Assembly: GCA_033764315.1 (NCBI GenBank)
Contig: JANRJA010000075.1
Coordinates: forward strand, 32,001 to 96,000
Origin: Oculatellaceae cyanobacterium bins.114
GTDB lineage: Bacteria; Cyanobacteriota; Cyanobacteriia; Elainellales; Elainellaceae
Length of the DNA stretch: 64,000 nucleotides
Direction: 5' to 3'
The notes under the pieces are model-generated. The model made no database searches. It was not told the DNA's origin and saw nothing but the letters and a program-made list of their open reading frames with translations. Shown here one piece after another: positions 58,083 to 60,791 of the stretch (within the stretch, counting starts at the first letter, position 1; every line of letters starts with the position of its first letter). Position numbers and translations under genes: made by a program.

Positions 58083-58982
58083 TTAATCTTCTTTGAGACC
58101 AACCACCATTTGCAAAATGACCGGATCACCTCCCGTTTGGTGATACCGATCTGCCCAGGCTCGAATGACTTCATCTAATTCTTCTAGTGCCTGATCAATG
58201 CAATCACTCGGAATGTCTAATTCCTCCAAGATTCGCACAAATCTAGGTTGTCGGTCTGCCCAGTTCTTCATCATGCGGAAGTAACGAGCCGTGTCTTCTA
58301 CCATGATGTAGGTGCGCTCTTCTTCATCTGCTGGAGAATAAGAAGCTCGTGTCAGAGCATAGAATGGCATTCCCCAAGGAGAATCAATCCGGGTTACGGT
58401 TCCAGAGTAAATTAGGCGGCGTTTAATGTGCTCCGCCAACGCTTCACTCAACGGCAGCTTACGGTCTTCAGGCAAATCTTCCTGCGAACGAGTGTGGAGA
58501 AACTCAATAATGTCCATGAACTGGAACGCATTGATCAATTGAGCGTCTGGCAAATTAGGAGGGAGTTTCTCTTCGATTTGCCGCTTCTCATCTTGAGTCA
58601 GACTTGTCCCAGGAATGCGAGGTCGTCCGGGTTGCCAGGGATATTGCTCTAACCAGACATAAGGCAGTTGGATCAGATAGCGAGGCTCTTGAGAACCCAG
58701 CATCTTTAACAGCTTGCCTTCTGTTAATGCCTGCCGAACTTCTTCAACAATGACTTTGACTCGCTTAGGTTCAATGTGATGTAAGTGCCCCGTCATCCGC
58801 AGGTTTTGTTCCTGTTCTAGATACGTCATATAAATGGCACATTTTGCCGCTGTTGCGGCTGCATCTAAAAAAGCCCCGTGTCGATGCCCTCCAGTGCGCA
58901 TAGCACTAAATGCGAGGTACAGCATGATCTGATCCATTGCACTTGGGCTGAGGCGTTTAATCAGATCGAGGTCGTTGGTCAT
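58083..58982 (-). CDS. hetR: HetR master regulator
   Basis: 299 aa colinear with Anabaena Het[38 protein letters not shown]...HIKRRL.YSGTV. Confidence 0.98.
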
Positions 58983-59373
58983 TTTAGGTGCGATCGCAAA
59001 TATGATGAACAGTACTTTTTAAAGTTAGAGCAGTAATCTCTCTGTAGGTTTAGAGCTGACTCTTGAAACACCCTTAGCTTAGATCATCCTGATACATCAG
59101 GCACAGCTTAAACACTGATTTTTCCAACACACAACACTTTCCGTGTACCCGTTTAGCTAAGTCAACCGTAAAATCGACTTTCTTAAAGAACTGGGCTAAG
59201 TCAATACCTTCTGTATTCAGCGATTGTACTGATCCCAGTCAGAAGAAAGATTAGATCAGCCTGTGTGAGTATCACATTCTACAATCTATAGCCAAATCTC
59301 TAAAAACCAGTCAATATGCACCTAAATTAACTGAATTTGAGGGTAATTAGCAAAAAGCTGAGATCTGAGGTGA

Positions 59374-59571
59374 TCAGGACGTGCAGGGAGTTCGCCGACC
59401 ACTGCCTCGATGAAAAAGAGGTTGGTTAATTTTTTGTGCATCTGATAGCTCTCCCTGGTATGAGATGCCAGATGCGATACTACTTGACCCACAGTTCTGA
59501 TTTTCGGAATGATTCAAAATTAGTAGAGCGAAAAGCAGAGCTGCTGAAAGAATTGGGGTAAAAATTGACAT
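59374..59571 (-). CDS. patX: PatX-like RGSGR peptide precursor
   Basis: 65 aa; hydrophobic N-terminal signal and C-terminal PLFHRGSGRR; directly upstream of hetR in the same orientation. Confidence 0.88.
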   Translation of the reverse strand: MSIFTPILSAALLFALLILNHSENQNCGSSSIASGISYQGELSDAQKINQPLFHRGSGRRTPCTS

Positions 59572-59606
59572 GAGCAAGGTTCCGTCTCAAAGCATCTACC
59601 CCCTGA

Positions 59607-59633
59607 TACGGAGTTTTCAAATAGCAATCAGGA
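59607..59633 (-). promoter_or_regulatory. DIF1-like promoter of patX
   Basis: Minus strand TCCTGA (one mismatch to TCCGGA), 18 nt, GTA, ending 36 nt before the ATG. Confidence 0.5.
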
Positions 59634-59909
59634 AGATCTCTAAACGGAGTTATTTGGTGGTGTTTACGGATACCAGTCGCAAACCAGGAAATAAGAATTT
59701 AGTGAGGAGGTTCTCCTGATTCACTTGATTGCCTGATCCCGCAGAGGTTGCTCACTTTGCACTCAGATTTTCGCCAAATTTACGATACTATCCTCTTGAG
59801 ACGTTAACTGGATCGATATCCGTTGAGTCTTAGTCCAATCGGCGATCGCGGTATCAGGGGTATCAAAACCGTGGCTTTAACACCAAGTCGTAAATAAGAC
59901 GCAATTGTT

Positions 59910-60791
59910 ATGGCAAATGAGGAACATCTCAGTCTACTTAAGCAGGGTGTCAATAGTTGGAATCAATGGCGAGAAGACACTCCAACTGTCACACCTGACA
60001 TCAGCGGAGCTAATTTGAACCAGATGAACCTGAGCGAAGCTAACCTCAGCGGGGTAGATTTGCAACGGGTGATTTTGCATGGAGCTAATTTGACGGCAGC
60101 CAACCTACATAACGCCATGCTTGTGAATGCTGACATGAGCGGCGTTGAACTCAATGCGGCTAATTTAAGTAATGCCAACCTTAGCAGTGCAAATTTGTTT
60201 GGAGCTTATCTCAGTGGAGCAAACCTGAGTGGTGCTGACCTCAGCGATGTTCAACTCAATCGCTCTGATCTCAGCGGGGTTAATCTCAGCGGAGCAAACC
60301 TTAGCCATGTCAATTTATTAGGGGCTGATTTGAGCGGCGCAAACTTGAGCAGCACAATATTAAGTCATGCCGATCTCAGTCGGGCTGAGTTAAGTCGTGC
60401 AGAACTTAAGCAAGCTGATCTCAGTGGAGCCAACTTGAGTGAAGCTCGATTGATGGGTGCTAATTTAAGTGAGGCTATTTTAAGTGAGGCAAATCTGAGC
60501 CGTGCTCGGCTCAATCGGGCTGATTTAAGTGATGCGACGTTGGTTGGTGCAAAGTTGGTGGGAGCAACATTGGTTGGGACTAAACTCACCCGCGCCAAAC
60601 TGAGCAATGTCGATTTAAGTGGCACAAACCTGAGTGGAGCTAACTTGAGTAGTGCCGTTTTGAGTGACGCTAACTTTAAAGATGCCAATCTTAGTGGTGC
60701 CAACCTTAAAGATGCACATTTAGAAAATGCCACTCTAGAGGGGGCCGACCTGAGCCAGGTAACAATGCCCGATGGCAGCGTTCACGACTAA
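59910..60791 (+). CDS. All-pentapeptide repeat protein (HetL-like architecture)
   Basis: Short MAN.EHL..LKQG...WNQWR cap, about 50 A(D/N)LXX repeats, MPDGS.HD cap. Confidence 0.9.
   Translation: MANEEHLSLLKQGVNSWNQWREDTPTVTPDISGANLNQMNLSEANLSGVDLQRVILHGANLTAANLHNAMLVNADMSGVELNAANLSNANLSSANLFGAYLSGANLSGADLSDVQLNRSDLSGVNLSGANLSHVNLLGADLSGANLSSTILSHADLSRAELSRAELKQADLSGANLSEARLMGANLSEAILSEANLSRARLNRADLSDATLVGAKLVGATLVGTKLTRAKLSNVDLSGTNLSGANLSSAVLSDANFKDANLSGANLKDAHLENATLEGADLSQVTMPDGSVHD

What the first reader, a model, noticed from the sequence alone, without database searches (positions are those of the whole stretch)
58083..60791. Compact hetR / patX / HetL-like locus: activator, RGSGR inhibitor and candidate immunity protein together in an apparently non-heterocystous filament
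Seen: hetR, a 65-aa secreted-type peptide carrying HRGSGRR (RGSGR codons at 59395-59409) directly upstream, and a divergent 293-aa protein made almost entirely of pentapeptide repeats. Established: RGSGR peptides (PatS, PatX, HetN) inhibit HetR; patX is found with hetR in filamentous cyanobacteria; in Nostoc the all-pentapeptide protein HetL binds HetR and protects it from PatS. Inference: this may be a physically linked activator/inhibitor/immunity patterning module that serves something other than heterocysts. The hetR-patX linkage is known; the linked HetL-like partner is the new part. Pentapeptide genes are abundant in cyanobacteria, so chance adjacency is a real possibility.
Basis: partly seen in the sequence, partly recalled or inferred. 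Interest (0 to 1): 0.75.

Follow-up and report, generated by a model that had tools for sequence, protein, structure and literature searches.

The report
patX-hetR pair beside an ordinary pentapeptide protein
This is the well-known hetR regulator gene with its small inhibitor gene patX in a filamentous cyanobacterium, and the repeat-protein gene next to them looks like an incidental neighbour kept in only one known relative, not a proven third part of the system.

Summary
hetR lies at 58083-58982(-). A 65-aa PatX-type ORF with HRGSGR lies directly upstream (RGSGR codons 59395-59409). A divergent 293-aa protein of 50 uninterrupted pentapeptides lies at 59910-60791(+).

The hetR-patX pair is the known module of non-heterocystous filaments. 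An RG[ST]GR frame sits upstream of hetR in 40 of 74 surveyed loci, and in 0 of 25 loci of the Nostocales clade.

The new claim, a linked HetL-like immunity partner, is not borne out by synteny:
- A pentapeptide gene is the upstream neighbour in 1 of 73 related loci (L007, 70% identical orthologue).
- It is the upstream neighbour in 0 of 8 loci that share the window's downstream neighbour.
- The usual neighbour is an FAD oxidoreductase gene (19 loci).

The protein misses NCBIfam's HetL cut-off (180.7 against 260 bits). That score lies in the range of six of seven unrelated pentapeptide proteins (107-184). HetL is nevertheless its best PDB fold match, and the two share a rare C-terminal tail.

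HetR binding could not be tested because the complex predictor was unavailable. My best reading is an ordinary patX-hetR locus with a lineage-specific, probably incidental neighbour. A HetL-like role has about a 0.12 chance.

The parts
58083..58982 (-). hetR, 299 aa, full length
   Evidence: NCBIfam HetR equivalog 584.8 bits against a cut-off of 489. Pfam Peptidase_S48 and HetR_C hood domain at residues 219-297. R223 is present; A152 replaces the nearly invariant S152.
59374..59571 (-). patX-type ORF, 65 aa from the ATG (a TTG two codons upstream at 59577 would give 67 aa). Hydrophobic N-terminus and HRGSGRR near the C-terminus.
   Evidence: ORF list. NCBIfam PatX 23.5 bits, below the cut-off of 30; 11 of 12 positional PatX candidates from other non-heterocystous loci also fail it (1 passes at 33.5, 6 score 21-26, 5 have no hit). 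HRGSGR is invariant in 20 of 20 aligned candidates.
59395..59409 (-). RGSGR codons (residues 55-59 of the 65-aa form)
   Evidence: My arithmetic from the ATG at 59571, on the sequence and the translation.
59088..59101 (.). Perfect 14-nt palindrome CCTGATACATCAGG, 106 nt upstream of the hetR start. A candidate operator; its function is unknown.
   Evidence: One match in the window against 0 expected in shuffles. Partly conserved in L007.
59578..59909 (.). 332-bp divergent intergenic region between patX and the pentapeptide gene
   Evidence: No TCCGGA (DIF1) motif and no HetR-box-like match within 3 mismatches (the HetR box was recalled from memory). Little conservation with L007 on the side nearest the pentapeptide gene.
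59910..60791 (+). PRP293: soluble pentapeptide-repeat protein with a two-helix N-cap (residues 1-33), 50 uninterrupted pentapeptides (34-283) and the C-terminal tail VTMPDGSVHD
   Evidence: Pfam Pentapeptide 320.5 bits. Repeat register. AlphaFold2 pLDDT 93.3. Foldseek top hit is HetL, 3DU1. NCBIfam HetL 180.7 bits, below the cut-off of 260. Orthologue in L007 at 70% identity.
60831..60848 (.). GC-rich hairpin between the convergent genes PRP293 and PRP175; terminator-like on both strands
61330..61857 (-). PRP175: second pentapeptide protein, convergent with PRP293
   Evidence: Pfam Pentapeptide 101.6 bits. L007 has a 138-aa pentapeptide gene in the same position and orientation, at 39% identity.
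56485..57939 (-). 484-aa gene downstream of hetR with weak DUF1574/SGNH-like matches; the conserved downstream neighbour
   Evidence: Pfam matches all fall below their cut-offs. tblastn matches directly downstream of hetR in 10 of 80 loci.
55646..56524 (-). TM-PRP292: third pentapeptide gene, with a non-repeat N-terminal half that I read as hydrophobic. It overlaps the preceding gene by 40 nt.
   Evidence: Pfam Pentapeptide 92.8 bits at residues 143 onward. No orthologue in any of the 80 loci.

Best explanation
This is an ordinary patX-hetR locus of a non-heterocystous filamentous cyanobacterium.

- hetR encodes the HetR DNA-binding regulator.
- patX encodes a small precursor with an N-terminal export signal. 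By analogy with Nostoc, it is exported and cut to an HRG(S/T)GR hexapeptide that binds the HetR hood domain and switches HetR off.

The divergent 293-aa gene encodes a soluble right-handed beta-helix of 50 pentapeptides from the very large generic pentapeptide-repeat (COG1357/YjbI-type) superfamily. It has its own terminator-like hairpin. I could not identify its promoter.

Its place beside patX is a lineage-specific gene order. It is shared by descent with one diverged relative and is most likely not part of the HetR/PatX circuit.

**Shown here:** gene identities, protein architecture, and the rarity of the adjacency.

**Inferred:** PatX export and processing, and the lack of functional coupling.
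For: **Gene identities.**

**PatX anatomy.** It matches 19 positional homologues, and HRGSGR is invariant in 20 of 20. [quoted passage not shown]

**Synteny.** The search for related loci confirmed 587 HetR relatives and kept the best 80.
- The first upstream ORF of at least 150 aa could be called in 73 loci: FAD_oxidored 19, long EamA protein 23, Wzy_C 5, HD-GYP regulator 3, His kinase 2, MEKHLA 2, BPD_transp 2, ABC_tran 2, Pentapeptide 1 (L007), other or none 14.
- Only 3 of 80 loci hold any pentapeptide gene within the fetched flanks, 4 genes in 1,074,721 bp.
- 0 of 8 assessable loci that share the window's downstream neighbour have a pentapeptide gene upstream.

**Chance.** Four pentapeptide genes among roughly 1,000 genes is about 0.4% (my estimate of about one gene per kb). 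With 587 HetR-bearing species genomes, two or three chance adjacencies per flank are expected.

**Not a HetL equivalog.**
- HetL model: 180.7 bits against a cut-off of 260, in 3 stretches.
- Six unrelated pentapeptide proteins score 106.8-184.0, including one from Gordonia (128.1) and one from Chloroflexota (129.3). One Microseira protein passes at 296.9.
- By sequence, PDB HetL scores 102 bits. That is below a designed repeat protein (128) and close to Np275/276 (93).

**No shared regulatory signal.** No DIF1 motif or HetR box lies in the divergent intergenic region. PRP293 has its own terminator-like hairpin.
Against: - One relative, L007 (a MAG labelled Crinalium sp.), keeps small PRP - PRP - patX - hetR in the same order and orientation, with a 70% identical PRP orthologue. 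Nothing else in its 13 kb matches the 64-kb window, and hetR third-codon identity is only 0.52. The block has therefore outlasted rearrangement of both flanks over a long divergence.
- Three pentapeptide genes lie within 6.2 kb around hetR and none in the other 58 kb. The loci average about 3.7 per Mb.
- HetL is the top PDB fold match. The C-terminal MPDGS[IV]HD tail is shared with HetL and is rare among the other pentapeptide proteins fetched (3 of 346).
- In Nostoc, two of three soluble pentapeptide proteins tested bound HetR in a two-hybrid assay (HetL and All4303, but not All3256; PMC7476756 section 11). Binding by a non-orthologue is therefore not far-fetched.
- Between the window and L007, outward-facing residues are 67%, 77% and 67% identical on three faces but 39% on the fourth (two sequences only). 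This hints at constrained surfaces.
- Only 80 of 587 HetR loci were seen.
Confidence: 0.7

Rival explanations
1. PRP293 works like HetL. It binds the HetR hood domain at the PatX/PatS-peptide site without blocking DNA binding, and so protects HetR in the producing cell from HRGSGR. In this small clade it has been recruited next to patX-hetR as a physically linked activator/inhibitor/immunity module for a non-heterocyst patterning task.
For: - The adjacency is kept in L007 although both flanks are rearranged and hetR synonymous sites are nearly saturated.
- HetL is the best PDB fold match.
- The MPDGS[IV]HD tail is shared with HetL.
- HetR R223, which is needed for HetL and PatS binding in Nostoc (PMC7476756), is present.
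- The non-orthologous paralogue All4303 also binds HetR.
- Three of the four faces are conserved between the two orthologues.
Against: - The adjacency is absent from 72 of 73 related loci, and from all 8 assessable loci that share the downstream neighbour.
- The HetL equivalog cut-off is not met, and the score lies in the generic range.
- Proteins carrying the same tail also fail the HetL model: P0224 136.1, P0108 200.1, P0421 140.1.
- PRP293 has an unbroken run of 50 repeats and a 33-residue helical N-cap. The HetL alignment shows two irregular segments and starts near the chain's N-terminus.
- No HetR-box or DIF1 motif lies upstream.
[quoted passage not shown] The inhibitor/immunity logic may therefore not carry over to such filaments.
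- In Nostoc hetL is not next to hetR (recalled).
Confidence: 0.12
2. The small PRP - PRP293 - patX - hetR block is kept together by selection for some shared regulation or function that is not peptide immunity. For example, the pentapeptide proteins could act on another HetR-related partner, or on a DNA-handling enzyme, during the same developmental response.
For: - A four-gene order is shared by the window and L007.
- Three pentapeptide genes cluster locally in the window.
Against: - Only two genomes show the block.
- The small pentapeptide proteins are 39% identical, which is no closer than unrelated members of the family.
- PRP293 and PRP175 are convergent and have separate terminator-like hairpins.
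- The third pentapeptide gene has no counterpart in L007 or in any other locus.
Confidence: 0.1

Closest known systems
patX-hetR pair of filamentous cyanobacteria (Elhai and Khudyakov 2018, as cited in PMC11298460 and PMC7761841; studied in Leptolyngbya sp. BL0902)
   Same: A small ORF with a hydrophobic N-terminus and C-terminal HRGSGR lies directly upstream of hetR on the same strand. The arrangement is seen in 40 of 74 surveyed loci. In BL0902 a gene that meets the definition of patX lies immediately upstream of hetR.
   Different: BL0902 is reported to have a predicted DIF1 (TCCGGA) promoter upstream of patX. The window has no TCCGGA within the locus. The common FAD-oxidoreductase upstream neighbour (19 of 73 loci) is replaced here by a pentapeptide gene.
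HetL (All3740) of Nostoc sp. PCC 7120, PDB 3DU1
   Same: A soluble protein made almost wholly of pentapeptide repeats. It is the top Foldseek match (E 8e-16, 39% identity over 221 columns). The C-terminal tail MPDGS[IV]HD is shared.
   Different: - PRP293 scores 180.7 bits on the NCBIfam HetL equivalog model, below the cut-off of 260.
- It has 50 uninterrupted repeats, against 40 in HetL (PMC7761841 introduction).
- It has a 33-residue two-helix N-cap.
- HetL shows two irregular segments in the alignment.
- Binding to HetR and induction by HetR are unknown for PRP293.
- hetL is not adjacent to hetR in Nostoc (recalled).
All4303, a HetL paralogue of Nostoc that also binds HetR
   Same: A soluble all-pentapeptide protein that is not HetL yet interacts with HetR in a two-hybrid assay (PMC7476756 section 11). 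This shows that orthology to HetL is not required for binding.
   Different: I held no All4303 sequence, so no comparison was made. A third paralogue, All3256, did not bind, so similarity does not predict binding.
Generic cyanobacterial pentapeptide-repeat proteins (Np275/Np276, PDB 2J8K; Alr5209, PDB 6OMX; COG1357/YjbI)
   Same: The A(D/N)LXX repeat and the quadrilateral beta-helix fold. Sequence scores are similar (2J8K 93 bits). The NCBIfam Alr5209 model scores 185 bits in 5 repeated stretches.
   Different: PRP293 is longer than those structures. The function of these relatives is also unknown.

Membership tests
HetR (NCBIfam NF009718; Pfam PF03574 + PF18460) | Full-length match above the curated equivalog cut-off | tested here: met
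   584.8 bits against 489, covering residues 1-299 of 299. Peptidase_S48 265.4 bits and HetR_C 144.4 bits.
HetR | Hood-domain residue R223, needed for PatS and HetL binding | tested here: met
   R at position 223. Invariant in 52 aligned HetR sequences. Its role is taken from PMC7476756.
PatX | Small protein with an RG(S/T)GR motif near the C-terminus | tested here: met
   HRGSGRR at residues 54-60 of 65. HRGSGR is invariant in 20 of 20 positional candidates.
PatX | N-terminal hydrophobic or signal segment | tested here: inconclusive
   The N-terminus MSIFTPILSAALLFALLIL is hydrophobic and aligns with the other candidates. No signal-peptide predictor was available, and no basic n-region is evident.
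PatX | Located directly upstream of hetR on the same strand (in non-heterocystous filaments) | tested here: met
   The gap to hetR is 391 nt. The same layout occurs in 40 of 74 loci.
PatX | NCBIfam NF047413 equivalog cut-off (30 bits) | tested here: not met
   23.5 bits. The model appears tuned to other PatX sequences: of 12 positional PatX candidates from non-heterocystous loci, 1 passes (33.5), 6 score 21-26 and 5 have no hit.
Pentapeptide repeat proteins (Pfam PF00805) | Tandem A(D/N)LXX repeats above the gathering score | tested here: met
   320.5 bits against 20.2. 50 consecutive units.
Pentapeptide repeat proteins | Right-handed quadrilateral beta-helix fold | tested here: met
   AlphaFold2 pLDDT 93.3 with a strand every five residues. 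The listed Foldseek PDB matches from rank 1 onward are natural or designed pentapeptide-repeat solenoids.
HetL (NCBIfam NF047416 equivalog) | Score at or above the curated cut-off of 260 bits | tested here: not met
   180.7 bits in 3 stretches; the best stretch covers model positions 39-154 of 218. The L007 orthologue scores 174.1. Six unrelated pentapeptide proteins score 106.8-184.0, and one (P0079) passes at 296.9.
HetL | Soluble, made wholly of pentapeptide repeats, structurally similar to 3DU1 | tested here: met
   Top Foldseek hit is 3DU1, with TM 0.73 on the target. This reflects shared architecture and does not establish orthology; designed repeat proteins score about the same (4YC5, TM 0.75).
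HetL | Binds the HetR hood domain at the PatS site (HetL D151, HetR R223) | not testable with these tools
The equivalent of D151 cannot be assigned, because D or N at that repeat position is generic.
HetL | Expression activated by HetR; overexpression overrides PatS/PatX inhibition | not testable with these tools
   This needs experiments. No HetR-box-like site lies in 59578-59909 (the motif was recalled).

The most novel reading that the evidence does not exclude
In a small clade of non-heterocystous thin-filament cyanobacteria, a HetL-like pentapeptide protein has been captured next to patX-hetR. It forms a compact, physically linked activator / diffusible-inhibitor / self-immunity cassette. 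This would show that the three-part HetR-peptide-protector logic predates heterocysts, or operates independently of them.
Probability: 0.12. Interest if true: 0.6.

Novelty: new member of a known kind. Interest (0 to 1): 0.25.

Why it matters
According to a 2024 paper, what HetR and PatX do in filaments that never make heterocysts 'remains a mystery' (PMC11298460). A genetically linked protector would have offered a handle on that question and on how producer cells escape their own inhibitor.

The survey here shows that the linkage is not a general feature of patX-hetR loci. The window therefore adds another example of the known pair, plus one testable but weak candidate partner. The more general by-product is the neighbour census: an FAD-oxidoreductase gene, not a pentapeptide gene, is the recurrent upstream neighbour of patX-hetR.

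Tried and rejected
- **Complex prediction** (HetR hood domain in two copies plus PRP293, both as alignments): the tool answered that it was not available. Binding stays untested.
- **Orthologue searches for PRP293 in the protein collections:**
  - The whole-protein search was swamped by longer repeat proteins; the best identity was 54%.
  - The N-terminal 60 residues found the same cap in many TIR-pentapeptide fusion proteins but no orthologue.
  - The C-terminal 60 residues were swamped again, and no protein named HetL appeared in the top 120.
  - The all-against-all HMMER search gave 139,086 hits. The top 150 ranged from 514 to 7,692 residues, most over 1,000, with at most 57% identity.
  - None of these gives genomic context, so the distribution of the orthologue beyond L007 is unknown.
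- **Regulatory motifs:**
  - DIF1 (TCCGGA): the only copy in the window is at 13903.
  - HetR box (recalled from memory): the 3-mismatch hits nearest the locus are at 57481, 57765 and 60833, the last of which is the terminator hairpin.
  - The promoter scan found fewer sites than in shuffles.
  - Short inverted repeats in the intergenic DNA were unremarkable.
- **Defence-system reading of the pentapeptide genes:** no PADLOC hit for any of the three.
- **C-terminal tail as a HetL hallmark:** rejected, because the other proteins carrying the tail also fail the HetL model.
- **Degenerate search for the hetR-upstream palindrome in the loci:** no match in any of the 80 loci. The pattern was probably too strict.
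- **Frame error:** the L041 row was computed out of frame and is ignored.
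Full report
**1. What is there**

The ORF list and sequence show three genes exactly as described.

- hetR (58083-58982, minus strand, 299 aa) scores 584.8 bits on NCBIfam's HetR equivalog model, against a cut-off of 489. It carries both Pfam HetR domains.
- Upstream by 391 nt, on the same strand, lies a small ORF (59374-59571 from its ATG, 65 aa). 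It has a hydrophobic N-terminus, and HRGSGRR forms residues 54-60. By my arithmetic from the ATG, the RGSGR codons are at 59395-59409.
- Divergent from it, after a 332-bp spacer, lies a 293-aa ORF (59910-60791, plus strand). It scores 320.5 bits on Pfam Pentapeptide. It has a 33-residue N-terminal cap, 50 uninterrupted pentapeptides (residues 34-283) and a ten-residue tail.
- AlphaFold2 predicts two N-terminal helices followed by one continuous beta-helix, with mean pLDDT 93.3.
- A GC-rich hairpin at 60831-60848 separates this gene from a convergent 175-aa pentapeptide gene at 61330-61857.
- A third pentapeptide gene (55646-56524, minus strand) follows the gene downstream of hetR and overlaps it by 40 nt.
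- My repeat scans found no other pentapeptide gene in the 64-kb window.

**2. The hetR-patX part is the known module**

A scan of one genome per species with the HetR protein confirmed 587 relatives and kept the best 80 loci, at 81-92% identity.

- An RG[ST]GR-bearing frame lies within 1.6 kb upstream of hetR, on the same strand, in 40 of the 74 loci that have at least 1 kb of upstream sequence.
- In a HetR tree of 81 rows, the heterocyst-forming Nostocales form a 26-row clade (SH-aLRT 99). The window falls in a separate 16-row clade (87) of Leptolyngbyaceae, Oculatellaceae, Elainellaceae and one MAG labelled Crinalium.
- None of the 25 assessable loci of the Nostocales clade has patX directly upstream. 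Of the other 49 loci, 40 do.
The window itself holds no nif or glycolipid genes, but 64 kb cannot settle that.
- Twenty positional PatX candidates align with a hydrophobic N-terminus and an invariant HRGSGR.
- The window's PatX scores 23.5 bits on NCBIfam's PatX model, below the cut-off of 30. Eleven of 12 positional PatX candidates from other non-heterocystous loci also fail it. I therefore read the miss as a limit of the model.
- From the literature: PatX is exported and processed by the peptidase PatP to HRGTGR, which inhibits HetR directly (PMC12756182; abstract and sections 10 and 14 read).
- In Leptolyngbya BL0902 the role of patX-hetR in non-heterocystous filaments is called a mystery, and the effects of PatX looked largely HetR-independent (PMC11298460; passages read).

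**3. Is the pentapeptide gene a conserved partner?**

It is not a general one.

- I took the first ORF of at least 150 aa upstream of hetR in each locus (73 loci had one) and scanned them against Pfam.
- The counts were: FAD_oxidored 19, long EamA-domain protein 23 (all in the Nostocales clade), Wzy_C 5, HD-GYP response regulator 3, histidine kinase 2, MEKHLA 2, BPD_transp_1 2, ABC_tran 2, Pentapeptide 1, and other or none 14.
- An independent scan for at least 8 tandem pentapeptides found 4 such genes in 1,074,721 bp of loci, in 3 of 80 loci. Only L007 has one within 2.5 kb upstream of hetR (1 of 68 loci with that much sequence).
- The window's downstream neighbour, a 484-aa DUF1574/SGNH-like gene, recurs directly after hetR in 10 loci. 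Eight of these have enough upstream sequence, and none has a pentapeptide gene there.
- Within the window's own 16-row HetR clade, 13 loci are assessable and 1 has it.
- At about 0.4% of genes (my estimate), and with 587 HetR-bearing species genomes, two or three chance adjacencies per flank would be expected.

**4. The one exception deserves fair weight**

- L007 (a 16.8-kb contig of a MAG labelled Crinalium sp.) has the layout small PRP (+), PRP (-), patX (+), hetR (+), exactly as in the window.
- Its PRP is 70% identical over the full length, with a single five-residue gap. Its PatX is the closest to the window's, at 44% identity.
- Nothing else in L007's 13 kb matches the 64-kb window.
- The intergenic DNA is largely diverged, and L007 has two hairpin elements inserted.
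- hetR third-codon positions are only 52% identical.
- The block has therefore survived rearrangement on both sides over a long divergence.
- That is one evolutionary event in two genomes. The hetR-DUF1574 adjacency (10 loci) and the FAD-oxidoreductase-patX-hetR adjacency (19 loci) are kept more widely.

**5. Is it HetL?**

*Against:*
- The NCBIfam HetL equivalog model gives 180.7 bits, below the cut-off of 260. The match is split into three stretches.
- As controls, six unrelated pentapeptide proteins score 106.8-184.0. They include one from an actinobacterium (Gordonia, 128.1) and one from Chloroflexota (129.3). A Microseira protein passes at 296.9.
- The score per repeat residue (my arithmetic) is about the same for the window's two other pentapeptide genes.
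- By sequence against the PDB, HetL (3DU1) scores 102 bits. That is below a designed repeat protein (128) and level with Np275/276 (93).

*For:*
- By fold, 3DU1 is the top PDB match (E 8e-16, target TM 0.73, 39% identity). A designed solenoid is equally close (4YC5, TM 0.75), and 3DU1 has the longest chain among the natural pentapeptide-repeat proteins listed.
- PRP293 and HetL both end in MPDGS[IV]HD. Among 346 other pentapeptide proteins fetched, only 3 have a tail of that form.
- Those three fail the HetL model (136.1, 200.1 and 140.1 bits), so the tail is a cap type and not a HetL hallmark.

*Context:* The eLife paper reports that HetL binds the HetR hood domain through R223 of HetR and D151 of HetL. 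It also reports that the paralogue All4303 binds HetR while All3256 does not, and that sequence similarity cannot predict specificity among the 32 Nostoc pentapeptide proteins (PMC7476756; passages and section 11 read). R223 is present here.

*Conclusion:* PRP293 is not a member of the HetL equivalog family. Whether it works like HetL is open.

**6. What could not be done**

- The complex predictor was unavailable, so HetR-PRP293 binding is untested.
- Four attempts to list orthologues of PRP293 were swamped by the size of the repeat superfamily.
- Only 80 of the 587 HetR loci could be fetched.
- No paper in the searchable library holds 'hetR', 'non-heterocystous' and 'pentapeptide repeat protein' together. 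The three papers that hold HetL, HetR and 'pentapeptide repeat' concern Nostoc, and a word search of the eLife paper found no mention of synteny.
- I found no printed report of a pentapeptide gene beside patX-hetR. Elhai and Khudyakov 2018 was not readable here.

**7. Verdict**

The hetR-patX reading is right and already known.
- The linked immunity partner is a reasonable idea that fails the synteny test in all but one relative and fails the HetL membership test.
- I put 0.7 on an ordinary patX-hetR locus with an incidental, lineage-specific pentapeptide neighbour. I put 0.12 on a HetL-like protector, and 0.1 on some other functional link.

Noticed in passing
L002, L004, L011, L018, L021, L024, L025, L026, L030, L037, L041, L042, L044, L045, L054, L061, L072, L073, L075 (gene directly upstream of patX/hetR): A 450-650-aa FAD-dependent oxidoreductase gene (Pfam PF12831) lies on the same strand as hetR. 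It is the commonest upstream neighbour of patX-hetR outside the Nostocales (19 of 73 loci). The Nostocales clade instead has a long protein with a C-terminal EamA domain (23 of 73). The window has neither.
   Followed up: partly
window 55646-61857: Three pentapeptide-repeat genes lie within 6.2 kb around hetR, and none in the other 58 kb of the window. The 80 loci average about 3.7 such genes per Mb. The three are no more alike than unrelated family members (phmmer 66-68 bits).
   Followed up: partly
window 59088-59101: A perfect 14-nt palindrome, CCTGATACATCAGG, lies 106 nt upstream of the hetR start. It occurs once in the window against 0 expected. The block is partly conserved in L007. It is a possible operator.
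   Followed up: partly
window 58527-58529 (HetR residue 152): This HetR has alanine at position 152. At least 90% of 52 aligned HetR proteins have serine there.
   Followed up: no
window 1937-3283 (+): A 448-aa protein fuses a TIR domain to a GUN4-like domain (Pfam). PADLOC matches a ThsB-type TIR (211.6 bits) and the candidate defence protein PD-T4-6 (135.1 bits).
   Followed up: partly
window 59910-60008 (PRP293 residues 1-33): The two-helix N-terminal cap of the pentapeptide protein recurs in many proteins whose precomputed Pfam domains also include TIR domains (hits).
   Followed up: no
window 55646-57939 (-): The DUF1574/SGNH-like gene downstream of hetR and the 292-aa pentapeptide gene with a non-repeat N-terminal half overlap by 40 nt. 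They probably form one operon.
   Followed up: no
window 52599-55103 (+): A HlyD-family adaptor gene and a MacB/FtsX-type permease gene lie side by side. I recall this as the DevB/DevC exporter type. They lie 3 kb from hetR.
   Followed up: no
L007:2975-3250: Two long GC-rich hairpin-forming elements are inserted between the pentapeptide gene and patX. They are absent from the window.
   Followed up: no
window 17225-17851, 22046-22588, 35220-39069, 62394-63026: Other genes noted: two Uma2-family endonuclease-like genes; an integrase-like gene next to a partner-switching pair (HATPase_c_2 kinase and a response regulator with a SpoIIE phosphatase domain); and a rhomboid protease gene 2.8 kb from patX. 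The published PatX peptidase, PatP, carries a Sec-type signal peptide and is exported to the periplasm, so I see no reason to link the rhomboid to PatX processing.
   Followed up: no
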